Virus record (IMG/VR): IMGVR_UViG_3300018430_000021
Location: 128,001-192,000 of that record
Source: a virus
Lineage: Duplodnaviria; Caudoviricetes
Direction: 5' to 3' (one strand)
Length of the DNA stretch: 64,000 bases
Part shown: one piece after another, positions 2,986-59,038 of the stretch
Layout of the letters: each line of letters opens with the position of its first letter
Position numbering within the stretch: position 1 is the first letter of the stretch
Translations under genes and position numbers: made by a program
The notes under the pieces: model-generated
Told to the model about the DNA's origin: nothing
The model's database searches: none
Seen by the model: only the letters and a program-made list of their open reading frames with translations

Positions 2986-5853
2986 CTAGTATTGAACGAC
3001 ATTTAATTTATTGATAACAACAGCACCTTCTTGTTCCATAGAAAAGTTTGTAATGTTGTTATTGTCGTCAAGAACGGAGTCATCAATGCTTGCTTTGACA
3101 AGTACATAAAGGTCATAAAGTAATTTAGAAGCACCAACCCAATATTCATTAGTTGGATAGGTTTCTGCATTAATATTGTCCTTATAATAAGTCTTTAATA
3201 TCTGTTCACATGCAAAATAATTCCAGAAAGATGCTTCAGAAATAGTATATTGATGTTCACCAATAACATTACCTTTACGCATGATTTCTTCTTCACGAGC
3301 ATTTATATCGTTATACATACTAACGTTATAAGGCAATGGAATTGCACGGTCAGCACTTTTACTTATACGGGCATTCTTCAACCAGCGAGTTAATTTATTC
3401 TTTATATAAGTAATTTGTTTAGCTTCAAGTTTATATACAGAAGCCTTTAAAGAATCAAGCTGCGAAGTAGATGCAAGGTCATTATAGCTTGGAATAACTA
3501 TTTTTACATAAACCAAGTCATAATGTACACCTTTCAACGTAAGGTCATTAGCGGTATAAACCATCGGTAATTCCAGATTTATAAAGACATTACTGTTTTC
3601 ATCTTTAAATTCTGTGGCTTTACAATGGGTTATCACTTTTTTGGTATACGTATGTTCATTTTCAGGGCAGTAGAACTGATATGTGAGCTGAACATTGATA
3701 CCGTCAACAAGTTTTTCGAAAAGCTGCTTACCGCGAAGATCTGTTTTCGGAATATGTAACACATTGAATGGACCCTGTAACCAGCTCAAATCTGCACCCA
3801 TAACGACATTTGCACCATGGTTACTATTGTAGATTGAAATTTCATCGCTGTAGGTTTGAAGTGTCTTATCAAGTTCTGCACTGAATAAGTTACTTGAAGC
3901 CATTTTATTGTCCCATTCGTATTCCTGTTCTGGAGACTTAATTAAATCAGATACCTTAATATCTGCGTCAATACTTAGCGTATCTGGGTCATCTGTATAA
4001 ATCTTGATAATGTCAGCCTTATAGACTTTCTTTGTAGAACGCAAAGAATCATCAAGGAACTTATAGACCTTGTTTTTAAGCCTTTTATTGTATTCCTGAA
4101 GATTTGCGGTCGAATTTACACGAACGGTTCCAACCAAGTCATAATAATGTAAGAATGGCGGAAGGGTAAGAAGTGTAGTATTTACAGGTAAATTGTCCTT
4201 ACAGTTTTCACGGATTAACTGAACATTTCTAATCCATTGTTCTGTTGGATTTTTCGAATATTGCCAGTGATAATAACCGACAGGTGAAACCATGAATTTA
4301 ACATAGTCGGTAATATGATTCAAATATTCAGAACCGTAAATTGTATATGGTTCTGAAATATCGTCATCATTGAGAATATCACGCGGATAGTAATCACCAT
4401 CATTCTTGATATATAGACGACCAATTAAAGAATATGCGACAACATTTTGAACAAGCGGATATTCTTTAGTTGTTACCTGTGATTGTTCGATTTCCTGTTG
4501 ACCTGTAGCATAGGCATTATGAACATACATCGGCGAAGTAAGGGTTCCGAAATAGTTTTCGAAATCTTCCTTCATAATTAACTTATTACGGCGTCTGAAA
4601 TATGCAGGGCCATTGACCTTCATACTTGCCATGGATTCGAAATCGTCACCACCATAAATATCAGAATTTAAAATAAACGAAACATTGGAACTTACGTCAA
4701 TGATATTACCGTTTACACTTGCATAAACAGGAGTATTTATTATAATACTTGCACCTGAGACATGCTTTCTATTTGCGGCCTTGCCCATAGTAGAAATATA
4801 TTTGATATAGAAATTATCGGTTGTTTTCATCAAACCATTTACTACGTTATGGTCACGACCGAATGTTACCTTTACGGTTTCATCCGGATTTGTTGTTATC
4901 TTACAGATACGCAACTGTAATGCAAGAAGCTCCTTAATGGTCTGTTCGAGATACAATGTATCAAGATTCTTTGGATGTGAAATAACCTCATATAGTTTTT
5001 TCTTGAGTAGATCCGAAGTTTCAGGATTAATATTCTTGTACTTTTTATTTAACTTTATGGAATGTGTTTCAATATCGAATAAAGCTTCATCGGCGAATGC
5101 ATCTTCTTCAGTTTCGCCGATACCTACTTGGCACCAGCTATTTTTCTGAACATAATTTCTATCACCGTTATAAGCATAAGGGTCACGATTACCATACCAG
5201 TTAGAGAATGTCTTATCTGGAATATTGTAAGACTGTTCTGGTTTTGCAATTTTATTTAATACAGATTGTCCTTCGATTTTATATGTTTTACGTTCACCCT
5301 GGAAACATTTGATAGGCGTAACATTTTCAGTATTTACAAAGTTGATACCTTGTAATGGCATATAAACGCTATTCGTATGCGGAACGGCATTAACAAGATT
5401 TTTCTGCCAGTCTGCTTCATGACAATAAGTAATATCTTCATCGGTAAGAACATAGGAATAACTACTGTCGAGAATGAATGGCATATTCGCAAAAGTCAAG
5501 GCAAGAGAGTCTTGGTTAAAGAATATTTCCGTTCCTGCCTTATTAATTTCTTCCGGGAATGGTCCTTTTAACTGAATAATAAATTCAGCCTGTGCCGGAA
5601 CCGGACGACGAGGACCATAACCAAGATTTTGACAATGCTTGATATGATTTGACTTAATTTTTGAAGTTTCCAATAAGCGTTCTTCAGCACATCTTTGGGT
5701 ATAGAAATTTATCCTATCACAAGTATCACTTAATACTTGGAGAAATTTAGGATAGAAACAACTCGCTTTGATTTTATCAAAGAAAGTCTTATTTTTCATG
5801 AATGAGCGAAAACGTTCTATTAGTTCTTCAGTAGTTAATTCTGTATAATCCAT
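2986..5853 (-). CDS. Baseplate wedge protein, T4 gp6-like (paralog 2)
   Basis: FYTQRCAEERLLETSKIKSN...LGYGPRRPVPA N-terminus, VTFG, YIST-G and GGDDFESMASMK...LIMKEDF motifs of the gp6/baseplate-J family. Confidence 0.8.
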   Translation of the reverse strand: MDYTELTTEELIERFRSFMKNKTFFDKIKASCFYPKFLQVLSDTCDRINFYTQRCAEERLLETSKIKSNHIKHCQNLGYGPRRPVPAQAEFIIQLKGPFPEEINKAGTEIFFNQDSLALTFANMPFILDSSYSYVLTDEDITYCHEADWQKNLVNAVPHTNSVYMPLQGINFVNTENVTPIKCFQGERKTYKIEGQSVLNKIAKPEQSYNIPDKTFSNWYGNRDPYAYNGDRNYVQKNSWCQVGIGETEEDAFADEALFDIETHSIKLNKKYKNINPETSDLLKKKLYEVISHPKNLDTLYLEQTIKELLALQLRICKITTNPDETVKVTFGRDHNVVNGLMKTTDNFYIKYISTMGKAANRKHVSGASIIINTPVYASVNGNIIDVSSNVSFILNSDIYGGDDFESMASMKVNGPAYFRRRNKLIMKEDFENYFGTLTSPMYVHNAYATGQQEIEQSQVTTKEYPLVQNVVAYSLIGRLYIKNDGDYYPRDILNDDDISEPYTIYGSEYLNHITDYVKFMVSPVGYYHWQYSKNPTEQWIRNVQLIRENCKDNLPVNTTLLTLPPFLHYYDLVGTVRVNSTANLQEYNKRLKNKVYKFLDDSLRSTKKVYKADIIKIYTDDPDTLSIDADIKVSDLIKSPEQEYEWDNKMASSNLFSAELDKTLQTYSDEISIYNSNHGANVVMGADLSWLQGPFNVLHIPKTDLRGKQLFEKLVDGINVQLTYQFYCPENEHTYTKKVITHCKATEFKDENSNVFINLELPMVYTANDLTLKGVHYDLVYVKIVIPSYNDLASTSQLDSLKASVYKLEAKQITYIKNKLTRWLKNARISKSADRAIPLPYNVSMYNDINAREEEIMRKGNVIGEHQYTISEASFWNYFACEQILKTYYKDNINAETYPTNEYWVGASKLLYDLYVLVKASIDDSVLDDNNNITNFSMEQEGAVVINKLNVVQY

Positions 5854-5857
5854 ACAT

Positions 5858-5865
5858 TATTTATA
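5858..5865 (-). promoter_or_regulatory. T4-type late promoter TATAAATA, 4 nt before the ATG; contains the upstream gene's stop codon
   Basis: Minus strand reads cgcaTATAAATAatgtATGgat. Confidence 0.8.
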
Positions 5866-11138: not shown

Positions 11139-14075
11139 TGTATTTGCGTTATCGATTGAAGCACCGTTTTGTAGTATGACTTTTTGCGCCCATACGTGAC
11201 CAACCCAAGTTGCTGCGTTCTTGAATTCGATTGTTCCATACGGTGCGATAATTGTACCAGCATTGGAAGTACCTTGAACACCGATAGAAGCAGTAGCATT
11301 GCCACCATAGTAAAGACGGAAGTCGAACGGACCATCACTTCTTTCAACGAGGGTAATATTATTATTCAATACGATATTATTTGCATAAATCATAACTGAA
11401 CGGTCTGTACCATCTTCAGAAGAACCATTTTCAATTCTGAATGTTGTAGCAACTTCAGTATAGATTGTATCGAAATAATATTTACCAGGATAGAATGTAA
11501 CAACTTTGGAATTATCTCGGTTATCAACATCCAAACGGTTGTAATGACCAATGGTATATGTACCAGGTGCACCGAATATGTCATTATTGGAATAATCACC
11601 AGTGCCAGTCTCTACTGCTTCTGCAGAAATTCCAGGCATATCTGGATAAACTGGATTTTCCCAGGTTTCGATATGGTTAATACGACCACCGTTCTGATAA
11701 TTATATGAACAGTTCGGACCGCCATAAACAGTATCAATGGTAGTTCCATTTAAAGAAACAGAATTACCAATATATATAGGCTTGTCGAATGTCGAAGGGT
11801 TATTACAAGTTATAGCCTGTGCCGAAAGTGTTCCATAGAAATGGTTTGTACTATTTGTTGTAACAGTACAACCTGCAGCGACAGCAATATTCGAATAAAT
11901 GGTTGCACCATTTTCAACGATTAAGTTTCTACAAGCAAGGTCTTTACTTCCGATGCTACCGCCGTTAATAGTTAAATCAGAAAGACTGTAAAGACTGAAG
12001 TTAGCCAAGTAGTTATATGGATAAATATCTGGTTTAACAATCTTATATTTCCACCAATCAGATGTAGCTGTAGCAGAAGTTTCGTCAATTATATCCCTAA
12101 CTGGTTTATTAGGAATATCTGCTTCCATCCAAGCACTTACACTGAAATTTGTTGCGCTGTGTTCACGTGTAAGCGAAATATTGTAAGCTGTAAAGTATAC
12201 ATCGCCATTTGATGCATAATTGCTAAAATCCGGATTGGAAACAGAACCATCTGGATTATTAAATAAGTATTTAAAATTATTAGAATCTCTATATTCGACA
12301 TTCGGATTATTAACTATTATTCGTGCAGAACCAGCATGCGGCAATTCTTCTTTATCGTTAGAAATCCAATGTGCACCATCTTCAATTTCTTCTGGATAAT
12401 AATTATCAATATCTATTAAAAATCTCTGGAAGTATGGAATAGGTTCATCTTGATGATAGAAACGATAAGAACGAGAAGCCGCACTTGTTGCTTCTTTTAC
12501 CTTTGCAGCTACGTAATCATCTGTGTCATATACGTTCCAAGCATATAATGTTAATTCTGGAGATTGTTCTGTAGTAATATCAATATTAGTATAATCAACA
12601 TATAACGTTGTATCGTTGTAACTAAAGAACGGACCAGAAATACTAGCAACAGAATCTTTACCGATTAATTCAACATAGATACCTTTTGCACCTGCAACAT
12701 TATCGGCATAAATTGTATAGAATATGTCATTATTTGTATTTGCGATAATATAATGCAATTCACCTTTTTGGTCATTAGTGATTTTACCGTCTTCTGGAAC
12801 CATAACGGCACCAGTAATTTGTAATCTATTTAATGGAGTCTTTTTATAAGTCCAGTCTGCTTCGTCAAAACCTTCAGTCTGTGTTTTTACGGCTTCATCA
12901 GACCAATATTCATGTTCGAAATTAAGATATGCTCTTACAAGAATATGAGTAGTGATTGGTTCATCTAATTCTTTTACATTTTCAAAAGCGATTGGAAGCG
13001 TAAAGGTTAAATGACCGTCAGCGTCAAACTCTAAATCATATCTTGTTGTAGTATTACCGTCTTGTGTTATTTCAACTACAACTGGTTTTGTATAATATGA
13101 AATATTCGGATTAGTAATTGTTACCAGAGCATTAGCCGTTGGACTTGTACGATTTAAGGTACCGCCTGTAACAGAAACAAGTAATGGACTTAGCATTTCC
13201 GGAGCAGGAACACCGTTTACGTTAATATCAAAAACTAGTTTATTCTTATGTAATTTATCGTCATCTGCAGAAATGTATTGTTTAAATTCCTGATAAACCA
13301 GACTTGCCGCATAACCGTCTTCAAAAGGAATAGTTACAGATGCAGTAGTTTCCGCAGATGTATATGTAATATCATAGGATTCATTGGTAGTTTCATCGTA
13401 AAGATATGACGCTACGGAAGCGATTTCAACGGGGTCTATTTTACTGTCAACTACATCGATAAATGCGGATAATGAACTATAATAACATGGAACGTTTGTA
13501 TCTGGATTATATGTATTTACATAAATTCCATCTAGGTCACCGGCAAGATAATCTGTAGTTACACGATTGGTTTCCGGAGATTCAATAGGTACATCATAAT
13601 CAAATCCTTGACGTTCATTTGGTTCTGGTAAAACTGGATCTTCAGCAGCAGGGTCAACCTGTACTAATTTTGGACCACGTAATATTTTTGGAAGAAGTAT
13701 AGAATTAAATACTGCTTCTTTGTTATCATCGAAATGAATAGTAATTTTTGAACTATTAAAACCAACTTCAGTGTTATCCTTTTTACAGGACATTAACTGC
13801 TTAAAATAGAAAGTATATGCACCGTCTACATACATGAGAAGACCGTTGTGGTCATAAAAACTCAACTTTTCACGTTTACTGAAATCTGGGTCATTATTCG
13901 TAATACCATACATAGGAAACTTATCAAAAGATATAGTATTAGAAGTATTGGTATATAAATCATCAATAGTGACACTAAAATCTTCACTATTTAAATACGG
14001 TCTAATATCTTCTGTAAATGTAAGTTTAGCCTCATATGCACTAATTTCTATATTTTCTGATATTGTGTAATCCAT
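11136..14075 (-). CDS. Virion-associated adhesin-like protein: Ig-like repeats plus C-terminal beta-helix
   Basis: Three repeats with (I/V)xNxN...AW/AY; C-terminal PGKYYF...GTIIAPYGTIEF...GHVWAQKVIL beta-helix signature; CATAAATA 4 nt before the ATG. Confidence 0.55.
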   Translation of the reverse strand: MDYTISENIEISAYEAKLTFTEDIRPYLNSEDFSVTIDDLYTNTSNTISFDKFPMYGITNNDPDFSKREKLSFYDHNGLLMYVDGAYTFYFKQLMSCKKDNTEVGFNSSKITIHFDDNKEAVFNSILLPKILRGPKLVQVDPAAEDPVLPEPNERQGFDYDVPIESPETNRVTTDYLAGDLDGIYVNTYNPDTNVPCYYSSLSAFIDVVDSKIDPVEIASVASYLYDETTNESYDITYTSAETTASVTIPFEDGYAASLVYQEFKQYISADDDKLHKNKLVFDINVNGVPAPEMLSPLLVSVTGGTLNRTSPTANALVTITNPNISYYTKPVVVEITQDGNTTTRYDLEFDADGHLTFTLPIAFENVKELDEPITTHILVRAYLNFEHEYWSDEAVKTQTEGFDEADWTYKKTPLNRLQITGAVMVPEDGKITNDQKGELHYIIANTNNDIFYTIYADNVAGAKGIYVELIGKDSVASISGPFFSYNDTTLYVDYTNIDITTEQSPELTLYAWNVYDTDDYVAAKVKEATSAASRSYRFYHQDEPIPYFQRFLIDIDNYYPEEIEDGAHWISNDKEELPHAGSARIIVNNPNVEYRDSNNFKYLFNNPDGSVSNPDFSNYASNGDVYFTAYNISLTREHSATNFSVSAWMEADIPNKPVRDIIDETSATATSDWWKYKIVKPDIYPYNYLANFSLYSLSDLTINGGSIGSKDLACRNLIVENGATIYSNIAVAAGCTVTTNSTNHFYGTLSAQAITCNNPSTFDKPIYIGNSVSLNGTTIDTVYGGPNCSYNYQNGGRINHIETWENPVYPDMPGISAEAVETGTGDYSNNDIFGAPGTYTIGHYNRLDVDNRDNSKVVTFYPGKYYFDTIYTEVATTFRIENGSSEDGTDRSVMIYANNIVLNNNITLVERSDGPFDFRLYYGGNATASIGVQGTSNAGTIIAPYGTIEFKNAATWVGHVWAQKVILQNGASIDNANT

Positions 14076-14094
14076 ACTATATTTATGAGATAAG

Positions 14095-20162: not shown

Positions 20163-20227
20163 TTACGAGAATTCCAAAAAAATTCATATAAATAAAGTAT
20201 AAACGATTTTTATAGGAGAAACAATAA

Positions 20228-21547
20228 ATGAAAGTTACACAATCACAAGCTACTATGGTAGATACTTGGGCCAAGGCACCGGGCGGACTTTCCGTTGCTG
20301 GTATCAAGGACTCCCTTGTACGTTATAATACCGCACGTCTTCTCGAAAACCAGAAGACTAAGAATCTCGGTGCAGAACTTCTCACTGAAGATTTCACTCA
20401 GGGTGTAGGTGCTCCGCTTGGTCTCGACCAGGGTATTCCTCACGGTGGTGATGCTAAGGGCGTTTTCGCTCCGATTTCTCTCGCACTCGTCCGTCGTGTG
20501 TTCCCGCAGCTCTTCGCTAACGTTCTCGTTGGTGTTCAGCCGTTGATTGGTCCTGTCGGTCTTGCATTCGCACTCCGTTACATTTATAAGACAAATAACC
20601 CGAACGAACTCGTTGAAGCCGCATGGAAGGCAGTTCCTCGCTTCTCTGGTTATACCGGTTCTACCGCTAATACCAGTGGCGAATGGGATGCTGGTACCGG
20701 CGTTGACACTCAGTCCGCTGAAGGTTGGAAGATCACTGGCCCGACTTTTGGTTCTGATGACCCGTCTGTAAGCCGTAAGATGCCGGAAATCGGCCTTATG
20801 CTCAGCCGTCAGTCCATCGTTGCTAAGAGCCGTAAGCTCGCTGCTTCCTTCTCTCTTGAATCTGCTGCCGACATTAAGGCTATGCAGGGTATCGAAATGA
20901 TGACTGAAATGATTAACGTCCTCCAGGCTGAAATGACTGCTGAAATGGACCGTGAAACTATCGGTCGTTGTAAGGCTCTTTGCACACCGCGCGTGTTCAA
21001 CAAGTCTACAAAGACTCTTCAGGAAAACGATGCATTCATCGGCCGTAACTCCCAGGAACGTTTCGGTATGATTATTACCCACATCATGAAGGGTGTAAAC
21101 GACATCCGTACTGCTACTCGTCGTGGCGCTGCTAACATTGCAGTTGTTTCCCCGGACGTTGCTACTGTTCTTCAGTGCGCTAATCCTTGGTTCACCAAGA
21201 TTGCTCACGAAGTTAACGGTTCTGCTGTTACTCCGGAAATGGGTACTTTGAACGGTGTTGTTAAGGTCTTCTGTGACCAGTACGCTGTTGACGAATTCGG
21301 TCAGCACGATAACGGTGAAGTTCTCCTCGCATACAAGGGCTCTAGCCTCTATGATGCTGGTGTTATCTTCTGCCCGTACGTAACCGGTGTTGTCAACCAG
21401 GCTATTGACCCGAATGACTTCAGCCCTCGCGTTGGTATTATGAGCCGCTACGGCTTTGCTCATAATATGTTGGGCGCTGAAAACTACTACCGTCTCTTGA
21501 AGTTCAACGGCCTCTTCGCAGAAGCTGGTGAAGACCTCGAATGGTAA
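20228..21547 (+). CDS. gp23: Major capsid protein (T4 gp23-like)
   Basis: TARLLENQ, LVRRVFPQLFANVLVGVQP..GPVGLAFALR, AKSRKL, YKGSSLYDAGVIFCPY and FSPRVGIMSRYG motifs; LLTE probable maturation site. Confidence 0.97.
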   Translation: MKVTQSQATMVDTWAKAPGGLSVAGIKDSLVRYNTARLLENQKTKNLGAELLTEDFTQGVGAPLGLDQGIPHGGDAKGVFAPISLALVRRVFPQLFANVLVGVQPLIGPVGLAFALRYIYKTNNPNELVEAAWKAVPRFSGYTGSTANTSGEWDAGTGVDTQSAEGWKITGPTFGSDDPSVSRKMPEIGLMLSRQSIVAKSRKLAASFSLESAADIKAMQGIEMMTEMINVLQAEMTAEMDRETIGRCKALCTPRVFNKSTKTLQENDAFIGRNSQERFGMIITHIMKGVNDIRTATRRGAANIAVVSPDVATVLQCANPWFTKIAHEVNGSAVTPEMGTLNGVVKVFCDQYAVDEFGQHDNGEVLLAYKGSSLYDAGVIFCPYVTGVVNQAIDPNDFSPRVGIMSRYGFAHNMLGAENYYRLLKFNGLFAEAGEDLEW

Positions 21548-22132: not shown

Positions 22133-22415
22133 AATCTAATACAGAAAGTATATTTTCGACTTCTTGATTTTTGAAATGAACGTAAGCTTTTCCAGCTTTT
22201 TCCAGTTCATCTTCAAATTCGTCTTTATTGTATTTAAAATTTTTGAAATATTTATTATCACCGTCTTGATAACTGAATCTACATAAAGGTTCAGAACCAT
22301 AGAAAGAGAAAGTTCCGACAATAAAATCCTCAGCCATACCGAAATAAACCATATGGTCAGACATAGGATTGAAGTAAATCCTATGCGATTTGAGCATTTT
22401 AATTACTTCGTCCAT
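22131..22415 (-). CDS. Hypothetical protein (94 aa), probably leaderless late gene
   Basis: CATAAATA at 22420-22427, 4 nt before the ATG. Confidence 0.6.
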   Translation of the reverse strand: MDEVIKMLKSHRIYFNPMSDHMVYFGMAEDFIVGTFSFYGSEPLCRFSYQDGDNKYFKNFKYNKDEFEDELEKAGKAYVHFKNQEVENILSVLD

Positions 22416-22427
22416 TTAGTATTTATG

Positions 22428-23067: not shown

Positions 23068-23088
23068 TATTTATATTATTTATAAATA
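23068..23088. promoter_or_regulatory. Overlapping divergent late promoters including palindrome TATTTATAAATA (23077-23088)
   Basis: tatttata-t-tatttataaata-tttt-ATG. Confidence 0.8.
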
Positions 23089-23092
23089 TTTT

Positions 23093-24775
23093 ATGGCACT
23101 AGGCGATTTTAGAAAGATATTTGAGAAGACAGAAGTCATAAAACAAGCTACAGTAGAAGAAGTTAAAAAAGCATTTGAAAAGTTGCCAAATGCTAATATA
23201 CAGTATTCATTACCTGGTGAAAGAAAAGCTCGTAGAAGCGATGGTTTTGAACATTTAACAAAGACGGTTGACCTTTCAAAATATACAGTAATTGAATTTA
23301 CTGCTGAAAGAAATGCTGATGACGCAGGTATTACAAATAGCCGTTATAATATGAAACAAGTAAAGGCATTTATAAATTCACAAAACAATATAGAAGCTTA
23401 TGAAAAGAGCGTTTTGGAATTTTTAGGTGCAAATGCGTTAATGATTAAAAATAAGCCAGTAAAATCTGGTGAAATTGATATGTACCCATTAAATGTTGGG
23501 AATAAAGTTTTATATTCTACAGCACCTTGGTATTTACGTGGTCACGGTATTGCAGCAGCAATGCGTTCTACAAATACTGAAATTCAAGAAGCAGGTCAAG
23601 CAGTTGGTTTATTTACCGCTTATATGATGGATAGTAAAAGCGATGAAATTGACATTAGACATTTGAACTCTTTTGAAAATAGATTCCATTTTTCATTGTA
23701 TAATAATAAAAGGCGAGTAATGAATTTGCTTGAATGGTATATTTACAATTTCCATGGAGCAGTTGAAAAGTGTGTAGACGGTGGTGCTAAAGTATTTGCC
23801 GGATTACGTAATCCATTGACGATGCATCTTTCAGATATATCTTGTGAAGCCGGACATAAAATTGCAGAAAGCGGAATTGGTCCAAATATTCGTTCTGTAT
23901 TTAATGAACTGAATAAGAAACAAGAAAGAAAATTTAAAAATATAAACTCCTGGTGCCCTGCAGATATTGTAGTTTATGATGAAAGTTTGAAGAGAGAAAT
24001 GAAACCTTCTAACTTTGCTGATATTGATGAATATACTAAATGGCTTAATCGACAGACTGAAACAAACAGATTAAGACTTATTTCGTTGAAACTAAATACT
24101 TCCCGTTGGGACAACGTTATTTCACGAACAAGCGTTTCGGATAAAAAGAGAATGCCTGAAATATTGGATAAGAAATGGGAAGTTAACAAAGGTAATATTT
24201 ACCTTTATGTTCATCTAAATGAAGATGGAATTAAAATAACAGATAAAAATCAAGGTAATGTTATTAGGCTTAAGTTTACGGTTTTCGATAATGATAAAGG
24301 CGCAAGTATAGAAGCTGATTATCTTAATACTAAGCAAGTTCATTTTAATTTTGAACGTGAAATTCTTGTAGAGAATTTTAATCGTAAAGAAAATACTCAG
24401 ACTATGCTTGGTAAGGCTCGAGATACGTTAAACTATTATTTGGCCAAGAAAAAGATTGATACTATTGATGACGTTAATTTTGTATGGCCGGATCAGTTTA
24501 AAGAATTGTTACATACAGATGCAGTAGACGCGTTTAATGCAAGAACGACAACCAAACCATCATTGAAACGAAATACTGAAAAACTTGTATTGCGTGATGA
24601 AATTATGAAACTATATTCTGACTGGTTGAACAAGATGCGTAAGTTCTGTTTGTATAGAGGAGAACAGGAAGTAAATAAGTCTATAGATGAGTTTATTCTT
24701 TATACGATATATGCCGGAAAGAAAGAAAATTTCCAGGATATGGATTTCTTCCCTAAATATTATAAAATTGGATAA
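23093..24775 (+). CDS. Putative PD-(D/E)xK nuclease-fold late protein
   Basis: TEIQE, NSWCPADIV and ISLK motifs resembling restriction-endonuclease-like proteins of T4-like phages. Confidence 0.5.
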   Translation: MALGDFRKIFEKTEVIKQATVEEVKKAFEKLPNANIQYSLPGERKARRSDGFEHLTKTVDLSKYTVIEFTAERNADDAGITNSRYNMKQVKAFINSQNNIEAYEKSVLEFLGANALMIKNKPVKSGEIDMYPLNVGNKVLYSTAPWYLRGHGIAAAMRSTNTEIQEAGQAVGLFTAYMMDSKSDEIDIRHLNSFENRFHFSLYNNKRRVMNLLEWYIYNFHGAVEKCVDGGAKVFAGLRNPLTMHLSDISCEAGHKIAESGIGPNIRSVFNELNKKQERKFKNINSWCPADIVVYDESLKREMKPSNFADIDEYTKWLNRQTETNRLRLISLKLNTSRWDNVISRTSVSDKKRMPEILDKKWEVNKGNIYLYVHLNEDGIKITDKNQGNVIRLKFTVFDNDKGASIEADYLNTKQVHFNFEREILVENFNRKENTQTMLGKARDTLNYYLAKKKIDTIDDVNFVWPDQFKELLHTDAVDAFNARTTTKPSLKRNTEKLVLRDEIMKLYSDWLNKMRKFCLYRGEQEVNKSIDEFILYTIYAGKKENFQDMDFFPKYYKIG

Positions 24776-31837: not shown

Positions 31838-31841
31838 TAGC

Positions 31842-38995: not shown

Positions 38996-39790
38996 TTAGT
39001 CTTCCCATAATGCGATAGAGTCAAGTGAGCGTTTGTCGAGAACAGAGAACTTAAGCTTTGGCCAGTCGCGTCTACATTGAGCCGCACAGCTTCCGAGCAT
39101 ATAGATTCTCAAGATAATCGGATTGTTGAGAATAATCTGTTCTTCGTTCTTATTCATGTTGTTGATATGTGTATTGAGTTCTATCTTATGCTTCTTTAAT
39201 AATTCAATGCCCTTATTGATAAGGTAATTGGTTGCAAGCTTGATGTCTTCGGCCTTGCAGCTGTCAACGAACGAAGAGAAGTCGTTTGTTTCGATAACAG
39301 CTTTCTTGAAGAAATCGAAATCCTGAACTAACTGGTTCTTGCGGTCCGTAGTTAATCCGATATTATTGGAAGAGAACCATGTATCGATATTGTGATAATT
39401 CCAGAGGAACTTCTTGTACATTGTATATTTGAGTTCCTTGACAGAATCCTTGAAATTTACGGAATAGGTCAGGAAATTAATATATTCTGAATTGTCATCA
39501 TTGCTGATTGCATTATTGATATATTCCTGGAATGTCTGGGTACCTTCGACCTTGATAAGCACGTCCTGCTTATTTACCGGGTTATTTGTCGAGTTGTAGA
39601 TTGTATTGACATTCAAAGTAACCGGAATCTGCTTAGCCGTAGCGATACGCTTGAGGGTTTCGATAAGATTGAAATAATCCGTAGACACATAACCTACGGT
39701 AATGTTTTTACAAATCACGGAGCTCAATTCCTTCTTCGTAAAAGGAATCATTGGGCTATTTACATTAAAAACTTTGCTATTTAACATCAT
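38996..39790 (-). CDS. Hypothetical late protein (264 aa)
   Basis: ORF preceded by TATAAATA at 39793-39800; 3-nt gap to the wedge gene. Confidence 0.65.
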   Translation of the reverse strand: MMLNSKVFNVNSPMIPFTKKELSSVICKNITVGYVSTDYFNLIETLKRIATAKQIPVTLNVNTIYNSTNNPVNKQDVLIKVEGTQTFQEYINNAISNDDNSEYINFLTYSVNFKDSVKELKYTMYKKFLWNYHNIDTWFSSNNIGLTTDRKNQLVQDFDFFKKAVIETNDFSSFVDSCKAEDIKLATNYLINKGIELLKKHKIELNTHINNMNKNEEQIILNNPIILRIYMLGSCAAQCRRDWPKLKFSVLDKRSLDSIALWED

Positions 39791-39864
39791 TATATTTATA
39801 ATATAGAAAAGTGCAAATAAAATTTAGATAAAAAGAGAAAAACTGTTTAAATTTTTTAAAAATT

Positions 39865-40327: not shown

Positions 40328-40346
40328 CAGGTTTCTTTTATAAATA
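40310..40346 (+). terminator. Intrinsic terminator fused to a late promoter (40339-40346)
   Basis: agaagcctgtca-cc-tgacaggtttctttTATAAATAatgcATG. Confidence 0.75.
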
Positions 40347-40350
40347 ATGC

Positions 40351-40707
40351 ATGGCAACAATAGCTTCAAGAACAGAATATTTACAGAAAGTTTTGGTCGA
40401 CGGTATACTTCAGTATGACCTTTGTTCGCTTGATGCTGATGATTATGATTTCGGTAAGGAAAACTTCATAGTTGTCAGGGATAATGAAGAATGTAGACCA
40501 GACTTGATTTCTCTTAGAGCATACGGAACCATGAATTATTGGTGGTTCATTATGTGGTATAACGGCATTACTGATATTTGGAATGACTTGAAAAGAGATC
40601 CAGAAAAGCCGTTAATTTTGAAATACCCAGACTTGGAAGTTGTCCGCGATTTTTTGATAAGCATAAAGAAAGATAATAATAATCCTGAGGAACAAAATGA
40701 AGATTAA
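40351..40707 (+). CDS. gp53: Baseplate wedge protein, T4 gp53-like (LysM-like)
   Basis: ECRPDLISLRAYGTMNYWWFIMWYNGITD. Confidence 0.85.
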   Translation: MATIASRTEYLQKVLVDGILQYDLCSLDADDYDFGKENFIVVRDNEECRPDLISLRAYGTMNYWWFIMWYNGITDIWNDLKRDPEKPLILKYPDLEVVRDFLISIKKDNNNPEEQNED

Positions 40708-41688: not shown

Positions 41689-41724
41689 GAAACCGGTCTA
41701 GGCCGGTTTTCTTTTTTATAAATA
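41689..41724 (+). terminator. Intrinsic terminator fused to a late promoter (41717-41724)
   Basis: gaaaccggtc-ta-ggccggttttcttttTATAAATA. Confidence 0.75.
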
Positions 41725-41731
41725 TAGAAGT

Positions 41732-43309
41732 ATGAGTGCAATCGATGTTACACGTGCAAATAGAAACGCTACCCAGATTAACGATATAGCTAAAGCTGCC
41801 AATACCCAGCTTGGTAGTTATACTGCTATAACTAATGCTCTTAAAGAATTTAATAAGCAGGCAAAAGAGAATTCAAAGAATTCTACAGGCCAATCGAAGG
41901 CTATATCTTCGATGCAGACTGCATTGACTACACAGACCGGAATTCTTCAAGAGATTCTTAAAGTTTTGAAATCTGGTGTTGCGACTACTGGTACAGGTAC
42001 GAAGGCATTATCTGTAAACGGTCAACAAAAAGAAATGGCCGAAGCCGTTAAGAAGAGTAATCAGGTAAAAGGAAAAGTCGGAGGAGAATTAAAAATAGCT
42101 CCGTCTTCTATTCAACAGATTGCAACATTGACTTCTAGGGCTAATACGAAAGCAATGGAAGCTTCTACTAAAAAGCAAGCACAAGCTATTAGAACACAGA
42201 AGATTGCACAGTCGTTTGTAACGCCGAAAGCAAAGGAAAAAGTACAAACTGTATCGAAATCCAGCGGTAATCTTTTTGGAAGTTTAAGTAAATTGCTACC
42301 TAGATTATTGGTAGGTCTTAAAAAAATCTTATTTGCTGTATTTTCACCGGCAGCATTAATCGGTATGATTGTATCTCGATTCTTGCCGTATATTATTCTC
42401 GGTATCGCGTTCTTGTATGGATTATGGCAAGGTATAAAGGACCATCTTACTCAAATCTGGGATGACTTGCCGGATATAATTTGGGACGGTTTGAAATTAG
42501 CCGGCAAGATTTTATGGGAAGGAATTCTTTTTGTCGGTGATGTTATTTGGAAAGGTATAGATTTAATTGGTGAAATTCTTGCCAAAATAATGTTTAAGAT
42601 TTATGAAAACTTTGGCGAATGGTGGGCACAATTTAAGGAAGTTGTAAGCTTTGGCTGGAACTGGTTAAAAGAAGCATTTACAAATTGGTTTGATAAGGCT
42701 GTAGCTGTTTTCAAATTCGGTATAGACTGGGTAAAGGGGACATTCTCCGAAATGGCAGTCGACCTCAAGAATTCTGTTTTGGGATTTTTCAAGGGTATTG
42801 GAGATTATATCTCCAACTTTTTCGGCGGTATAAAAGACAAGATCGGTAATACTTGGCTTGGTAAGAAACTTGGTTTTGGTTCGTCACCGGAAACCGTAAA
42901 TACCACTACGAATGTAACCAATACAACGAATAATAAAACCGATTCTAATGCTGATGCGTTTAAGATGATGACTAAGGAGATTACCGCTCCGATGAATCAA
43001 ATGACTCGTCTTATAGAAAATCAGGATAAGTTGTTAAGAGAGATGAACATGACACCGGTTGTTCAGAATGCTAGTTTCAATACTAATATGACACCGGTTA
43101 ATGGAACAAATATCACTATTACACCGAATGACAATATTGCATCTACACTTGTAAGACAGACAACAAATATCACGAATATGCAGACTACAAATAACAAGGA
43201 ACTTGCTAACGCATTCTCTGCAGGTGTAGATAGATTGGTTACTACATTGAATGATAACTATCAGGCAAGCTTGATGGAAAAGAATCCACCAGTTACAACA
43301 GCGGGGTAA
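41732..43309 (+). CDS. Tape-measure-like / gp29-like tail protein
   Basis: Helical Q/A/K-rich N-terminus, hydrophobic segment, periodic Trp/Phe 11-residue repeats (IWDGLKLAGKILWEGILFVGDVIWKG). Confidence 0.6.
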   Translation: MSAIDVTRANRNATQINDIAKAANTQLGSYTAITNALKEFNKQAKENSKNSTGQSKAISSMQTALTTQTGILQEILKVLKSGVATTGTGTKALSVNGQQKEMAEAVKKSNQVKGKVGGELKIAPSSIQQIATLTSRANTKAMEASTKKQAQAIRTQKIAQSFVTPKAKEKVQTVSKSSGNLFGSLSKLLPRLLVGLKKILFAVFSPAALIGMIVSRFLPYIILGIAFLYGLWQGIKDHLTQIWDDLPDIIWDGLKLAGKILWEGILFVGDVIWKGIDLIGEILAKIMFKIYENFGEWWAQFKEVVSFGWNWLKEAFTNWFDKAVAVFKFGIDWVKGTFSEMAVDLKNSVLGFFKGIGDYISNFFGGIKDKIGNTWLGKKLGFGSSPETVNTTTNVTNTTNNKTDSNADAFKMMTKEITAPMNQMTRLIENQDKLLREMNMTPVVQNASFNTNMTPVNGTNITITPNDNIASTLVRQTTNITNMQTTNNKELANAFSAGVDRLVTTLNDNYQASLMEKNPPVTTAG

Positions 43310-48600: not shown

Positions 48601-49331
48601 GTAACTTTTTGTGGTTCTTTGTAGTAACCATTATCAACATTTATATAGAATTCATAAAGCATCAACCAACCGCCCTTAACAAGTTCAGTTACGGTATTTA
48701 ATTTTCCAGAACCATTACATTTTGGACATACGGTTTTAACTTCTATGTTCGGCGCAGGAATATAGGTATTGTCATTTCCTTTCGGGATTGCGACTGTTGT
48801 AGTAATGGTACCATTCTTACAAGGATTACCAGCATTATCAACATAATCACACGGTTCAGTTCCGGTAACAGTATATTCTGGTGCATAAAATTCAAGAGCA
48901 TTACCGTTATAGGATTTTGCTTTAAAATAAACAGTTCTATCGCTATCGTCAGATGACATATCATCATAATATTTGAGAGTTAACCATGGCAATATGCTCT
49001 GAAGATTTGTATCGCCAATATCGTCAGTATAGTTATAGACTGTAATAAATCTGTCGTAAGTACAGGTCTTGCATTCTACAAGGTGACAACAGAAATAGAC
49101 GAGAACTTGTTTTCTGTCTTTGAAAAGAATCTTAATCCATGCAGTACCAGTACCGACCGTATCTGGATCCGGCTTCGGGTATTGGTTTCCATATTCATCT
49201 CTGGCAGTCGGGTCCCATTTTGGAACAATATGGTTTTCAGTTTCATAATTGGCACCGACACTATCTAGGCGCCAGAGGATATTGTAGTATGCGTCTTCTA
49301 AACTTGTATTTATCTTATGCTTTATGACCAT
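45672..49331 (-). CDS. Large late protein with several DnaJ-type CxxCxGxG zinc-finger motifs
   Basis: CPKCNGSG, CPICQG..CDFCNG, CRICAG, CTTCNGTG..CPLCGGSG. Confidence 0.7.
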   Translation of the reverse strand: MVIKHKINTSLEDAYYNILWRLDSVGANYETENHIVPKWDPTARDEYGNQYPKPDPDTVGTGTAWIKILFKDRKQVLVYFCCHLVECKTCTYDRFITVYNYTDDIGDTNLQSILPWLTLKYYDDMSSDDSDRTVYFKAKSYNGNALEFYAPEYTVTGTEPCDYVDNAGNPCKNGTITTTVAIPKGNDNTYIPAPNIEVKTVCPKCNGSGKLNTVTELVKGGWLMLYEFYINVDNGYYKEPQKVTDFNIELYRDPKTYRPLNSLEAVYELIEKTKAENEGKPINEQTDLSNRIFAIPIFTKNVEKDYDTDKPTTKWIISGFRFYQTNYVDKDGKLIPLKAYAFWIPYEAPQKNIPDDYNRLGVSDYQLSSHHESGSMQIQVEPEYYDSGLMYQLGGIKNFLKHCGEVETNAATIHTPLVETYTDISNTDKIWNFICRKDKNLPIFPFDNNTLYISETSKPFEVDLYKNNNLTFKNILAQKTASNHSPLDAAVIKPEDPVPEVEPTGNENKIPVYPIDYFYGIDRITNLEMSKHLQLSNASNNSTYEFRNGYGDNVQRAGDFNSTPGLIINNYTKILNLCFNFHITIPEDKINKHASPYDAYLTVFTLNITYGDIDDDGNTFTTEHRLLSRPIQMDARDVFKSIYIDDDGNISYVWPTSINITDYELIDRGVVTIDEIDIPFKNKRIYFSISDSENPEINPYDVSAMDITVEVTVLSNIQQVSFKTDSLVNTNINLLPKIEYNYNNYPEGIFNYYQNKFDTSIENYIFYKYHNELMDREPTDNGLTLIPDTIESQKKYKGFLNLMYQRKLRSIYTKQDSRDDYFTCPICQGDTNIKCDFCNGKRKLSMYDYNKNPNYNPNDASKGPEILVRYTCPDINNIDHEQGISCANRCRICAGTKSMVRYYYYNALEFKNLTEYNGKNPVDIESLSKLDTLNIKNRILTNKVKEKGSTLEEPYLNYLIRKYYNVPVQGTELDFDKYYEYYNMAINNTVFYILNGNFTSYYYYAGNDHIKVDYGYNYIYSTKTVDRKTWDRDKGTFTDNTVLYRVISDPTDVDNMIGFYVITETDVKTEDTNFANARVQRIYFDKSWVYSNLLNDMTFNKFNTFIENKHNVVGKHQDLERIDINCEKLPSYAHIHNEENGQLVDTRCTTCNGTGIDPEDETKPCPLCGGSGDYPDNLQPETLYFEKAVYSYSSSEYINTNNISFEVDDQVSVDDLVEH

Positions 49332-49335
49332 ACAT

Positions 49336-49347
49336 TATTTATAAATA
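49336..49347. promoter_or_regulatory. Palindromic bidirectional late promoter serving two probable leaderless genes
   Basis: CAT-acat-TATTTATAAATA-aggt-ATG. Confidence 0.85.
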
Positions 49348-49351
49348 AGGT

Positions 49352-49756
49352 ATGTTAGCATTAAGCGCAAATTCAGATTATTTATCAAACGATAACTTTT
49401 CGTTGGTTAACGAATATTATGACTGGGACACGCAGTTTCATGACAATGAAATCTGGGGTGCGGACGCTATAAACCAGTCTATCGAGATGGTTTTGACTAC
49501 AGAACCACAAGAACGACTGTTCAATCCGACATTTGGCACGCCGTTGTTTAATCTGTTATTTGAAAATAGCTCAAATATTCAGAATATTATGCCATATGTC
49601 TATGATACAATCGAAACCTGGGTACCTATACAGATAGACCGTAACAATACGAACGTTCAGATAGACCCTAATAAACAGGTTGTATCTTTTCAGATTCCTT
49701 ACACCTCTAATAACGGTGTAATAGCCGGAATTTTCGGCAGACGAATATATAGATAG
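49352..49756 (+). CDS. gp25: Baseplate wedge subunit (T4 gp25-like)
   Basis: AINQSIEMVLTTEPQERLFNPTFGTPLFNLLFE. Confidence 0.9.
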   Translation: MLALSANSDYLSNDNFSLVNEYYDWDTQFHDNEIWGADAINQSIEMVLTTEPQERLFNPTFGTPLFNLLFENSSNIQNIMPYVYDTIETWVPIQIDRNNTNVQIDPNKQVVSFQIPYTSNNGVIAGIFGRRIYR

Positions 49757-57957: not shown

Positions 57958-58368
57958 TTAGAAATTATTTAGGAATGCATGCATGATAGCAGCTTTTCTA
58001 AACACCTCTACGCATTCATCGATGTTCTTAGCATCCTTAAAGTCGTCTTCTACGTAACCGTCAGGATCTTCTATTGTCCAACCGAGATTCCAAGCCTCCT
58101 GGAGCTCTTTTTTCGAGGTCTCATAGTCTTTGCAATAGTGCTTGATAATAAGCCCACCGATGTCATCTCCTGCGGTCTTAAGGTCCTTTTCGGAAAGTAC
58201 AGTATTAATAGTACCAATCTTAACTTGGTTTTGGTAATAACCCTTAGCCTTCGTAAAGTCGATAAATTGGTCCATGCTGTCGAATCGTAAATCGGATTCA
58301 TTCAACGCAGGTTTTTCAGCTACGAAGTGATGTTCTTTAAGAAGTTGTAATGCGTTTTCTAATTCCAT
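57958..58368 (-). CDS. Hypothetical late protein, probable internal head protein
   Basis: TATAAATA at 58373-58380, 4 nt before the ATG; N-terminus LENALQLLKEHHFVAE..LNE resembles ORF 22477..23043. Confidence 0.6.
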   Translation of the reverse strand: MELENALQLLKEHHFVAEKPALNESDLRFDSMDQFIDFTKAKGYYQNQVKIGTINTVLSEKDLKTAGDDIGGLIIKHYCKDYETSKKELQEAWNLGWTIEDPDGYVEDDFKDAKNIDECVEVFRKAAIMHAFLNNF

Positions 58369-58375
58369 ATTTTAT

Positions 58376-59038
58376 TTATACCTCAGTAGACGCAGTATAG
58401 AAGAAATCTTCATCTGTTGCGTAAGTAATAGCATCAGCAGAATCTAGCATATCTTCATATTTCTTTAGTCGTTCTTCTGTTAAGAATGCGTCAGGTTCTA
58501 TATTCTTCAAAACCATTTTTGCTTCTCTGAACGAACCTGTCTGAACCAATGAAATTACTGTCAATAACTTCTGTGCAATTTCAAGCGGAGTTACTGTTTC
58601 GAAATCTGTAAAGATACATTCTTCTCTAAATAGTGAAATGAAGTCGTTACCTACAGAAATATTGTAATTAACTTCGCCTGCAACTCCGTCTATTGCATTT
58701 ATACGGTCAACGTTCTGATTAAGTTCTCGTTTAAATCTATCTAAAGAAACCAGTGCTCTTTCTTCTTCAGGTTTAGAAACTTCGATGAAATCATAAACTT
58801 TATGATTTTCGTAATCTTCTATAATAGATGGTGCTTCTTTAGTCCACCAATCTTTATTCATATAAACTACTTTACCATCTACTTCTACAATTCTGCTTAC
58901 GTATTTCATTCCAATTTCCTCAGTGAAGACACAATCATCTTCTAATATTCCTTCTTTGTTTAACATCTCTTTGGCAAATTTCATATTATCAAATCTGCCA
59001 ATGAATTTAAAGTTTTCTTTATTTAGAACATAAATCAT
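58376..59038 (-). CDS. Hypothetical protein in the tail-fibre operon (possible fibre chaperone)
   Basis: 220-aa ORF immediately downstream of the two fibre genes. Confidence 0.5.
   Translation of the reverse strand: MIYVLNKENFKFIGRFDNMKFAKEMLNKEGILEDDCVFTEEIGMKYVSRIVEVDGKVVYMNKDWWTKEAPSIIEDYENHKVYDFIEVSKPEEERALVSLDRFKRELNQNVDRINAIDGVAGEVNYNISVGNDFISLFREECIFTDFETVTPLEIAQKLLTVISLVQTGSFREAKMVLKNIEPDAFLTEERLKKYEDMLDSADAITYATDEDFFYTASTEV

What the first reader, a model, noticed from the sequence alone, without database searches (positions are those of the whole stretch)
5851..58380. Fixed TATAAATA-N4-ATG geometry points to a class of leaderless late mRNAs
Seen: ten genes have (T/C)ATAAATA exactly 4 nt before the start codon, leaving no room for a Shine-Dalgarno. 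Starts are at 5853-, 14075-, 22415-, 23093+, 31821-, 31842+, 40351+, 49331-, 49352+ and 58368-. Nine of ten continue ATGG. The 16-mer TATAAATAATGTATGG is identical at three loci (5850-5865, 31818-31833, 49328-49343) and differs by one base at 40339. High-copy genes (capsid, scaffold, sheath, tube, portal, protease) instead have a leader with an AGGA(G) SD. Known: TATAAATA is the gp55-type late promoter, with initiation a few nt downstream. Inference: transcription starts at or next to the AUG. The phage may set stoichiometry through two translation modes, leaderless for low-copy baseplate/accessory proteins and SD-led for abundant ones.
Basis: partly seen in the sequence, partly recalled or inferred. 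Interest (0 to 1): 0.8.

Follow-up and report, generated by a model that had tools for sequence, protein, structure and literature searches.

The report
Leaderless late genes of giant phage
In this giant T4-like gut phage about a quarter of the late promoters sit exactly four bases before a start codon, so those genes are probably made as messenger RNAs with no leader; the layout is conserved in its relatives and gives a sequence-only readout of where late transcription starts.

Summary
(T/C)ATAAATA-N4-ATG occurs 10 times in the window (0.39 expected) and 25 times in the 291-kb genome. All 25 ATGs open ORFs of at least 94 aa. The base before the ATG is a pyrimidine in 24 of 25.

Box-to-start distances form two classes: a spike at 4 nt, and a broad 14-37 nt class with an AGGAG-type SD.

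No transcription start was measured. Several indirect lines place it on the A of the ATG:
- The SD-led boxes carry the same pyrimidine-purine signature at positions 4 and 5.
- The phage's early -10 hexamer shows the same hexamer-N6-ATG spacing.
- 16 of 25 sites are either divergent pairs 20-49 nt apart or abut terminators.
- Orthologues down to 32% identity keep the geometry, with a coding substitution pattern from codon 2.

T4 numbering predicts a 5-nt spacer, not 4. A second uncultured T4-like lineage uses exactly N5 and has a T4-like gp55. The N4 lineage has only a distant gp55-like sigma. T4 and four cyanophages show neither pattern.

The stoichiometry idea is only correlative.

Other first readers of this scan flagged the same pattern in overlapping windows of this genome. 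Thermus phages already have mapped leaderless late mRNAs. Verdict: a new variant of a known kind.

The parts
5851..5865 (-). Late box TATAAATA (5858-5865), spacer ATGT, then the ATG of gene 2986-5853 (955 aa, gp6-like baseplate wedge). The box lies in the last codons of upstream gene 5861-8989, leaving a 7-nt gap.
14073..14087 (-). CATAAATA, spacer TAGT, then the ATG of gene 11136-14075 (979 aa, unknown). It sits directly behind a strong hairpin plus T-run (terminator-like, -17 kcal/mol).
22413..22427 (-). CATAAATA, spacer CTAA, then the ATG of gene 22131-22415 (94 aa). It sits directly behind a hairpin plus T-run (-17.7 kcal/mol). This is the only site with a purine at -1.
23081..23095 (+). 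TATAAATA, spacer TTTT, then the ATG of gene 23093-24775 (560 aa, unknown). The box is half of the palindrome 23077-23088; the other half drives the SD-led gene 22477-23043(-).
31819..31844 (.). Bidirectional unit: CAT-N4-TATTTATAAATA-N4-ATG. The whole intergenic region is 20 nt. Left gene is 30961-31821(-) (286 aa). Right gene is 31842-33722(+) (626 aa, hub protein with a lysozyme-type domain).
40339..40353 (+). TATAAATA, spacer ATGC, then the ATG of gene 40351-40707 (118 aa, gp25/gp53-like baseplate wedge). It sits directly behind a hairpin (-19.6 kcal/mol) and heads an operon whose later genes (40697, 41175) have an SD.
49329..49354 (.). Second bidirectional unit with a 20-nt intergenic region. 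Left gene is 45672-49331(-) (1219 aa). Right gene is 49352-49756(+) (134 aa, baseplate wedge).
58366..58380 (-). TATAAATA, spacer AAAT, then the ATG of gene 57958-58368 (136 aa). The box overlaps the end of upstream gene 58376-59038, leaving a 7-nt gap.
62523..62534 (.). The same 12-bp palindrome TATTTATAAATA, here driving two SD-led genes: 60700-62499(-) with a 23-nt leader and 62561-(+) with a 26-nt leader. It serves as a contrast case.
20187..20230 (+). SD-led late promoter of the major capsid gene 20228-21547: box, 33-nt leader, AGGAG. It represents the second class. The same design is seen for tube (box 17391), protease (26172), portal (9022), terminase piece (26971), 10701, 18092 and 27961.
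39788..39800 (-). Near miss: TATAAATA-TA-ATGATG before gene 38996-39790. The two ATGs lie at spacings 2 and 5.
41717..41734 (+). Near miss: TATAAATA-N7-ATG before gene 41732-43309 (525 aa), behind a terminator hairpin. It would give a leader of about 3 nt.

Best explanation
These are late promoters of the T4 type fused to start codons. Host RNA polymerase, carrying a phage-encoded, highly diverged gp55-like sigma, recognises (T/C)ATAAATA. In this lineage it starts on the purine five bases after the box, preceded by a pyrimidine. At 25 genes that purine is the A of the ATG, so the mRNA begins with AUG and has no leader and no Shine-Dalgarno. Translation must then use the leaderless route, in which the ribosome and initiator tRNA bind a 5'-terminal AUG.

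The other late genes use the same box with a 14-37-nt leader and an AGGAG-type SD. The leaderless gene is the first cistron of its transcript, and genes further along use SDs. Leaderless starts fall mainly on lower-expression late genes (baseplate, neck, lysis, nucleases). SD-led starts fall on the abundant ones (capsid, scaffold, sheath, tube).

Shown: the geometry, its statistics, its conservation, coding from codon 2, the absence of SDs and of alternative starts, and the presence of a sigma region-2 protein and a clamp. Inferred: the exact start base, the translation mode, and the link to protein amounts.
For: 1. Spacing. There is a spike at 4 nt, 21 of 81 TATAAATA boxes, or 22 of the 74 YATAAATA boxes that have a called gene start within 150 nt, and almost nothing at 5-13 nt.
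2. All 25 sites open ORFs of at least 94 aa (p about 2e-21). No GTG or TTG at that position opens an ORF.
3. The base at -1 is a pyrimidine in 24 of 25 sites (p 8e-7), and in 23 of 23 sites in two relatives.
4. Independent calibration. In 34 SD-led boxes, position 5 after the box is A in 25 (p 0.0014) and position 4 has the fewest purines.
5. The early -10 hexamer TATATT peaks at N6-ATG (24 cases). The late box read as TATAAA also gives N6-ATG (21 cases).
6. Context. Ten sites are divergent with gaps of 20-49 nt, and six abut strong hairpins, four of them followed by a run of four or more T. There is no room for a leadered transcript at these 16 sites.
7. 23 of 25 sites have no SD, and no credible SD-led start lies within 60 codons downstream.
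8. Orthologues. 59 N4 ORFs of relatives match N4 genes here, and 54 align residue 1 to residue 1, down to 32% identity. Differences in codons 2-16 fall 123/147/229 on codon positions 1/2/3 (p 9e-9), while the spacer varies at 24-54% of pairs.
9. Lineage-wide. Complete relatives of 416 and 424 kb have 28 and 29 N4 sites against 7 and 8 N5 sites.
10. A sister lineage uses TATAAATA-N5-ATG, which is exact T4 numbering, with a pyrimidine at -1 in 278 of 285 sites and sigma70-type hexamers at N6-ATG. It carries gp55 homologues at E 1e-19 to 1e-30, whereas the N4 lineage scores only 1e-5 to 1e-7.
11. Machinery. The candidate sigma L011:1438-2118(-) passes the Pfam Sigma70_r2 cut-off (25.6 against 24 bits). 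18 of 19 family members hit the late-sigma family phrog_234. It has an invariant C-terminal GLDFYENL resembling T4 gp55's clamp-binding SLDFLYEA. The best fold matches are nearly all sigma-factor chains of RNA polymerase holoenzymes or isolated sigma domain 2. A gp45-like clamp scores E 5.5e-10.
12. Expression proxy. The codon-usage score per codon has a median of 0.152 for N4 genes and 0.268 for SD-led late genes (p 1e-5).
13. Precedent. Thermus phages YS40 and Lalka27a have mapped leaderless transcripts, late ones included (bioRxiv 10.64898/2026.04.20.719267).
Against: - No 5' end was measured. The RNA runs that hold near-identical phages were available only as assembled contigs, which cannot show starts.
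- In T4 the box spans -13 to -6 and P23 starts on the sixth base after it (PMC2988020, PMC7892883). With T4's own geometry, N4 would put +1 on the T of the ATG. The reading therefore needs a 1-nt shift that is inferred, not shown.
- The gp55 assignment is weak at the sequence level. Profile comparison with T4 gp55 gave E 0.033 and probability 1.5%, there was no PDB sequence hit, and fold E-values were 0.04 or worse.
- gp33 was not found.
- Seven N4 genes lie 3-16 nt behind a co-directional gene. They could also be translated from read-through transcripts by coupling.
- The host is unknown, so its ability to translate leaderless mRNA is untested.
- The stoichiometry link has exceptions: portal and terminase are SD-led. 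The codon score was trained on this genome's long ORFs.
Confidence: 0.8

Rival explanations
1. The box is a promoter, but initiation follows T4 spacing: the sixth or seventh base after the box, which is the T or G of the ATG. The transcript made here would then lack the AUG. The gene would be translated only from longer transcripts made upstream, by coupling or SD-independent initiation.
For: T4 numbering puts the box at -13 to -6 and +1 six bases after it. T followed by G also fits the pyrimidine-purine rule. Seven sites lie 3-16 nt behind a co-directional gene.
Against: This reading gives no reason for an in-frame ATG at one fixed distance in 25 of 25 cases. At 16 sites no upstream transcript is plausible, because they are 20-49-nt divergent gaps or abut terminators. 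The SD-led boxes put their purine peak at position 5, not 6 or 7. The lineage with a T4-like gp55 shifts the ATG to N5, which is what is expected if the A must be +1.
Confidence: 0.07
2. At these sites the AT-rich box is not a promoter. It would be an SD-independent translation signal on longer mRNAs: an A/U-rich enhancer or Kozak-like context, as in Bacteroidota.
For: The phage comes from ruminant gut samples, and an earlier, unchecked note of this scan suggested a Fibrobacter host. About 37% of its genes lack an SD by my crude score.
Against: The same 8-mer, with the same T-rich upstream context, sits 14-37 nt before SD-led late structural genes, where it cannot be a ribosome site. It follows terminators and forms overlapping divergent pairs. 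It matches the T4 late consensus exactly in a T4-like genome that has a gp55-like sigma. An enhancer would not need a spacing exact to one base or a pyrimidine at -1.
Confidence: 0.07
3. Gene-call artefact: the real starts are SD-led codons further downstream and the N4 ATGs are incidental.
For: Starts were not verified experimentally. Five sites have a weak 4-5-nt SD-like word before an in-frame start within 60 codons.
Against: Orthologues align from residue 1, and codons 2-16 show a coding substitution pattern. The weak SD-like words are poorly placed and are absent at 20 of 25 sites. Relatives confirm the N4 ATG even where my own caller chose another start (genome position 106289).
Confidence: 0.03
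4. The pattern is a by-product of genome compaction or chance and has no bearing on expression.
For: The genome is AT-rich and densely packed.
Against: 10 sites against 0.39 expected. Read-backwards controls gave 0-2 hits. The N3 palindrome control in IMG/VR gave 17 hits, only one with ORFs on both sides and none in T4-like contexts, against 47 for N4 and at least 120 for N5.
Confidence: 0.02

Closest known systems
T4 late promoters (TATAAATA read by gp55, with gp33 and the gp45 clamp)
   Same: The 8-bp box is identical, there is no -35 element, and it sits before structural genes on both strands. The genome has T4-like structural genes, a small sigma with region 2 only and a clamp-binding-like C-terminus, and a gp45-like clamp.
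   Different: T4 has no TATAAATA-N4-ATG site, and the shorter 7-mer ATAAATA-N5-ATG occurs only twice. Four T4-like cyanophages also show no enrichment. T4 starts on the sixth base after the box, whereas here the fifth is inferred. The sigma is only distantly related to gp55, and gp33 was not found.
Leaderless transcripts of Thermus phages YS40 and Lalka27a (bioRxiv 10.64898/2026.04.20.719267)
   Same: In these phages most transcripts, late ones included, begin with the A or G of the start codon. The late promoters have their own -10-type element.
   Different: Their late element is different (TAGGGT), the phage family is unrelated, and the host phylum (Deinococcus-Thermus) uses leaderless mRNAs generally. 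There nearly all genes are leaderless. Here only about a quarter of late promoters are, alongside a strong-SD class.
Leaderless genes of Actinobacteria and Deinococcus-Thermus, and lambda cI from PRM (the lambda case from my own knowledge)
   Same: A -10 box lies 6-7 nt before the start codon, there is no SD, and AUG is preferred.
   Different: Those use host housekeeping sigma promoters. Here a phage-specific late sigma box is used and the spacing is diagnostic of the lineage. The phage's early promoters do show the host-type version, TATATT-N6-ATG.
Poxvirus late promoters, TAAATG initiator (from my own knowledge, not tested here)
   Same: A late-promoter core overlaps or abuts the start codon, so late mRNAs have essentially no templated leader.
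   Different: These are eukaryotic viruses with their own polymerase. Poly(A) heads are added by slippage, and translation is cap-dependent.

Membership tests
T4-type late transcription (gp55/gp33/gp45 system) | An 8-bp TATAAATA box is the only conserved promoter element, and it sits before late structural genes | tested here: met
   31 boxes against 9.7 expected. 74 of 93 YATAAATA boxes in the genome lie within 150 nt upstream of a called start. The boxes precede the capsid, tube, protease, portal and baseplate genes within 40 nt, and the sheath gene 71 nt upstream. Upstream of the box there is only T-richness and no -35-like conservation.
T4-type late transcription (gp55/gp33/gp45 system) | A gp55 late sigma: small, with region 2 only and a C-terminal clamp-binding motif | tested here: inconclusive
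   The candidate L011:1438-2118(-) scores 25.6 bits on Sigma70_r2 against a cut-off of 24 and E 8.5e-5 on phrog_234, with 18 of 19 relatives matching. It has an invariant GLDFYENL tail and its best fold matches are nearly all sigma-factor chains or isolated sigma domain 2. Against this, profile comparison with T4 gp55 was not significant and there was no PDB sequence hit.
T4-type late transcription (gp55/gp33/gp45 system) | A gp33 co-activator | tested here: not met
   phrog_254 gave no match at E up to 1. PF16805 gave only 13.7 bits against a cut-off of 25. The record is about 70% complete and gp33 is small, so absence is not shown.
T4-type late transcription (gp55/gp33/gp45 system) | A gp45 sliding clamp | tested here: met
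   phrog_223 matched at E 5.5e-10 at genome position 3586-3933(-), and none of the 14 control genomes matched.
T4-type late transcription (gp55/gp33/gp45 system) | The box lies at -13 to -6, so transcription starts on the sixth base after the box | not testable with these tools
   No 5'-end data were available. The geometry here implies a start on the fifth base. The sister lineage fits the sixth.
Leaderless mRNA | The transcript's 5' end coincides with the start codon | not testable with these tools
   Only assembled RNA contigs were available. This feature is inferred from promoter geometry.
Leaderless mRNA | No Shine-Dalgarno sequence and no room for one | tested here: met
   23 of 25 sites have no SD. 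In the other two, the SD-like word lies upstream of the box.
Leaderless mRNA | AUG is strongly preferred as the start codon | tested here: met
   25 ATG sites, and no GTG or TTG at that position opens an ORF.
Leaderless mRNA | Translation starts at that AUG | tested here: met
   The evidence is indirect. Orthologues align from residue 1 (54 of 59), and codons 2-16 show a third-position excess of differences, p 9e-9.

The most novel reading that the evidence does not exclude
Box-to-ATG spacing is a built-in genomic record of where each late sigma makes the polymerase start. Two uncultured T4-like lineages differ by exactly one base, N4 with a diverged gp55 and N5 with a T4-like gp55. This would mean the late sigma sets the start site. 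These phages would then use leaderless translation as a separate late expression channel, for example one that stays active or is favoured once the host's or phage's handling of SD-led initiation changes late in infection, to set the low amounts of baseplate, neck and lysis proteins.
Probability: 0.3. Interest if true: 0.75.

Novelty: new variant of a known kind. Interest (0 to 1): 0.62.

Why it matters
- It adds a second, leaderless design to the textbook T4 late promoter. The design is used by whole lineages of uncultured giant phages but by none of the cultured T4-like phages checked here.
- Because a leaderless mRNA needs the AUG at its very 5' end, the fixed spacing reveals the transcription start from sequence alone. 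It predicts a one-base difference in start-site placement between two gp55 variants, which can be tested in vitro.
- It improves gene-start calling in such genomes. My own longest-ORF call at genome position 106085 was corrected to the N4 ATG at 106289.
- It offers a natural system for asking whether phages use leaderless versus SD-led initiation to set protein ratios.

Tried and rejected
- RNA evidence. Four ruminant-gut metatranscriptome runs hold 90-99% identical sequence, but only as assembled contigs. They show no starts, ends or strand, and the listed contigs neither bridge nor cleanly stop at the N4 sites, so nothing can be concluded.
- Megablast of 7 kb against cultured phages gave no match.
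- The T4 gp55 protein searched against the genome gave no match. Only the family profile found the candidate.
- phrog_12791 gave no match.
- phmmer of the candidate sigma against PDB sequences gave nothing.
- hhalign of the candidate's family against the single T4 gp55 sequence was not significant, E 0.033.
- gp33 searches gave nothing above the cut-off.
- Blastn of an N5-lineage locus against cultured phages gave only short terminase matches.
I found no reason to tie this to leaderless function and leave it unexplained.
- Literature searches for leaderless combined with T4-like, jumbo phage, cyanophage or late promoter found no description of this design. The hits were citations of a gene finder, the AR9 paper, and the Thermus phage work.

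Full report
**What the window is.** The window is bases 128001-192000 of a 291-kb IMG/VR virus record, rated about 70% complete. It carries the structural module of a T4-like myovirus: sheath, tube, scaffold, major capsid protein, protease, portal, part of the terminase, and baseplate wedge and hub proteins. The capsid protein is only about 33% identical to that of any cultured phage; T4-like cyanophages are the closest. Complete relatives are 416-424 kb long with terminal repeats. Near-identical sequence turns up in sheep and cattle gut RNA libraries.

**Observation.** Every element of the finding checks out. YATAAATA-N4-ATG occurs 10 times in the window, against 0.39 expected from shuffles. 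Each ATG is the first ATG of a long ORF.

Across the genome, the distance from TATAAATA to the next ATG shows one spike at 4 nt: 21 of 81 boxes, against 0-6 at every other distance up to 39. With called genes, the distances split into two classes. One is a spike at 4 (22 starts). The other is a broad class at 14-37 nt whose members all show AGGAG-like SDs. Almost nothing lies between them.

All 25 YATAAATA-N4-ATG sites open ORFs of at least 94 aa. Only 14.8% of all ATGs do so, giving p about 2e-21. No GTG or TTG at that position opens an ORF.

**Where transcription probably starts.** T4 numbering places the box at -13 to -6, and the P23 promoter starts on the sixth base after the box (PMC2988020, PMC7892883). 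Four results say that in this lineage +1 is the fifth base, which is the A.

1. The base before the ATG is a pyrimidine in 24 of 25 sites here (p 8e-7), and in 23 of 23 sites in two relatives. This is the usual pyrimidine(-1) purine(+1) rule.
2. In the 34 SD-led boxes, which are independent of any ATG, position 5 is A in 25 (p 0.0014). Position 4 has the lowest purine content of the twelve positions examined.
3. The phage's early -10 hexamer TATATT peaks at N6-ATG (24 cases). The late box read as the hexamer TATAAA also gives N6-ATG (21 cases). This is the canonical distance from a -10 hexamer to +1.
4. A second lineage uses the T4 spacing itself, as described below.

**No room for a leader.** Of the 25 sites:
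- Ten are divergent from the neighbouring gene, with gaps of 20-49 nt. Two pairs in the window (31821/31842 and 49331/49352) have 20-nt intergenic regions that consist of the 12-bp palindrome TATTTATAAATA plus the two spacers.
- Six abut strong hairpins, four of which are followed by a run of four or more T.
- Seven have the box inside the last codons of the upstream gene. Often the TAA inside the box is that gene's stop codon, which gives a recurrent 7-nt gap.

23 of 25 sites have no SD, and no credible SD-led start lies downstream.

**The ATGs are the real starts.** In fragments and genomes of relatives, 59 N4 ORFs match N4 genes of this phage, and 54 align residue 1 to residue 1, down to 32% identity. 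Across 37 orthologue pairs, differences in codons 2-16 fall 123/147/229 on codon positions 1/2/3 (p 9e-9). This is a coding pattern right behind the ATG. Over the same pairs the spacer differs in 24-54%. Some genes switch class between relatives. For example, the gene at 18092 is SD-led here but N4 in a relative.

**Spread and controls.** Relatives G001 (26 kb) and G002 (87 kb) have 6 and 16 N4 sites, with none in the reversed-pattern control. Complete genomes G004 and G006 have 28 and 29 N4 sites against 7 and 8 N5 sites.

I scanned IMG/VR for the bidirectional form, CAT-Nk-TATTTATAAATA-Nk-ATG:

| Spacer | Hits | ORFs of 60 aa or more on both sides | Other features |
|---|---|---|---|
| N3 | 17 | 1 | None of the loci has a homologue of this phage's proteins |
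| N4 | 47 | 30 | Other boxes in these loci peak at distance 4 |

In the N5 loci the base at -1 is a pyrimidine in 278 of 285 sites. Sigma70-type hexamers there peak at N6-ATG. Both facts match T4 numbering with the A as +1. N5-lineage genomes have N5 to N4 counts of 14:1, 16:0, 7:2, 5:1, 5:1 and 6:0.

T4 has no TATAAATA-N4-ATG site. With the shorter 7-mer ATAAATA, T4 and four T4-like cyanophages give 0-2 hits at N5 and 0-1 at N4, no more than their controls.

**Machinery.** A 226-aa protein (L011:1438-2118(-)) was identified as a candidate late sigma on these grounds:
- It passes the Pfam Sigma70_r2 cut-off.
- It matches the T4 late-sigma family phrog_234, as do 18 of 19 of its relatives.
- It ends in an invariant GLDFYENL, which resembles the clamp-binding SLDFLYEA of T4 gp55.
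- Its predicted structure (pLDDT 80) finds almost only sigma-factor chains among the best PDB matches, though at weak E-values.

Direct comparison with T4 gp55 is not significant. A gp45-like clamp is present. gp33 was not found.

N5-lineage genomes carry gp55 homologues at E 1e-19 to 1e-30. N4-lineage genomes score only 1e-5 to 1e-7. The one-base difference in spacing therefore goes with a strongly diverged sigma. This rests on five genomes against three, and they are not phylogenetically independent.

**Two translation modes and protein amounts.** The annotated N4 genes are baseplate wedge subunits, the hub-lysozyme protein, three neck or connector proteins, an amidase, and HNH, homing and other endonucleases. 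About half of the N4 genes have no annotation. SD-led late genes include capsid, scaffold, protease, portal, sheath, tube and terminase.

A codon-usage score per codon has a median of 0.152 for N4 genes and 0.268 for SD-led late genes, at similar gene lengths (p 1e-5). The portal and the terminase are exceptions, and the score was trained on this genome's own long ORFs.

**Comparison with the known.** Leaderless mRNAs are well known, and Thermus phages YS40 and Lalka27a have mapped leaderless late transcripts. I found no description of T4-type late promoters fused to start codons.

The new points are:
- the fusion of the gp55-type box to the ATG at a fixed distance;
- its coexistence with a strong-SD class in the same late regulon;
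- the overlapping divergent promoters in 20-nt gaps;
- the lineage-specific spacing, N4 against N5.

Other first readers of this scan noted the same pattern in overlapping windows of this genome, and a follow-up agent described the leaderless early genes. I re-tested both.

**Verdict.** The leaderless reading is well supported but indirect, at about 0.8. The stoichiometry reading is plausible at about 0.4. This is a new variant of a known kind.

Noticed in passing
IMG/VR loci L087-L206; genomes G010, G015, G011-G013, G016: A second, larger set of uncultured T4-like phages, some with genomes up to 517 kb, fuses TATAAATA to ATG at N5, which is exact T4 numbering. The base at -1 is a pyrimidine in 278 of 285 sites, sigma70-type hexamers sit at N6-ATG, and the gp55 is clearly T4-like. 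A few N5 hits lie in giant-virus records, including two in a 1.26-Mb record, and may be chance.
   Followed up: partly
window 23077-23088, 31826-31837, 49336-49347, 62523-62534 (8 in the genome): The 12-bp perfect palindrome TATTTATAAATA holds two overlapping divergent late boxes. The pairs are N4/N4, N4/SD-led or SD-led/SD-led. Two polymerases could hardly occupy both halves at once.
   Followed up: partly
window 5858-5865 and 58373-58380; genome 97327, 115249: The TAA inside the box serves as the stop codon of the upstream gene, giving a recurrent 7-nt gap to the next ATG. One 8-mer is at once a stop codon and a promoter.
   Followed up: partly
whole genome: The early-type -10 hexamer TATATT is followed by N6-ATG opening an ORF 24 times, and by N7 8 times. 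The phage therefore also has leaderless-looking early genes, as an earlier follow-up of this scan reported.
   Followed up: partly
window 18092 against locus L031; window 40697 against L020; window 34180 against L024: The same gene can be SD-led in this phage and N4 in a relative. Genes therefore switch between the two designs over evolutionary time.
   Followed up: partly
N4 spacers, genome-wide: The spacer is not random. Its consensus is (A/T)(T/A)G(T/C). G at the third position occurs in 14 of 25 N4 sites but only 6 of 34 SD-led boxes (p 0.005). G at +4 after the ATG is also enriched (13 of 25 against 25% of all genes). Both are unexplained.
   Followed up: no
window 26971-27930 and genome 258460-259251: The 319-aa ORF matches only part of the terminase large-subunit profiles. 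A second ORF about 100 kb away hits the same regions of relatives' terminase genes. This suggests a split or duplicated terminase.
   Followed up: no
proteins P0078, P0084: Homologues of the gp55-like sigma on 418-427-kb contigs are labelled Methanobrevibacter sp. MAG in NCBI. This is most likely mis-binning of these rumen phages, since a sigma-dependent phage would not fit an archaeal host.
   Followed up: no
window 54592-57060: An NrdD-like anaerobic ribonucleotide reductase large subunit (E 3.5e-170), which fits an anaerobic gut host.
   Followed up: no
window 39788-39800 and 41717-41734; genome 104707, 227742, 246833: A few boxes sit 2, 5, 6 or 7 nt before the ATG. These would give truncated mRNAs or leaders of 1-3 nt. 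They may be decaying or very weakly translated leaderless starts.
   Followed up: no
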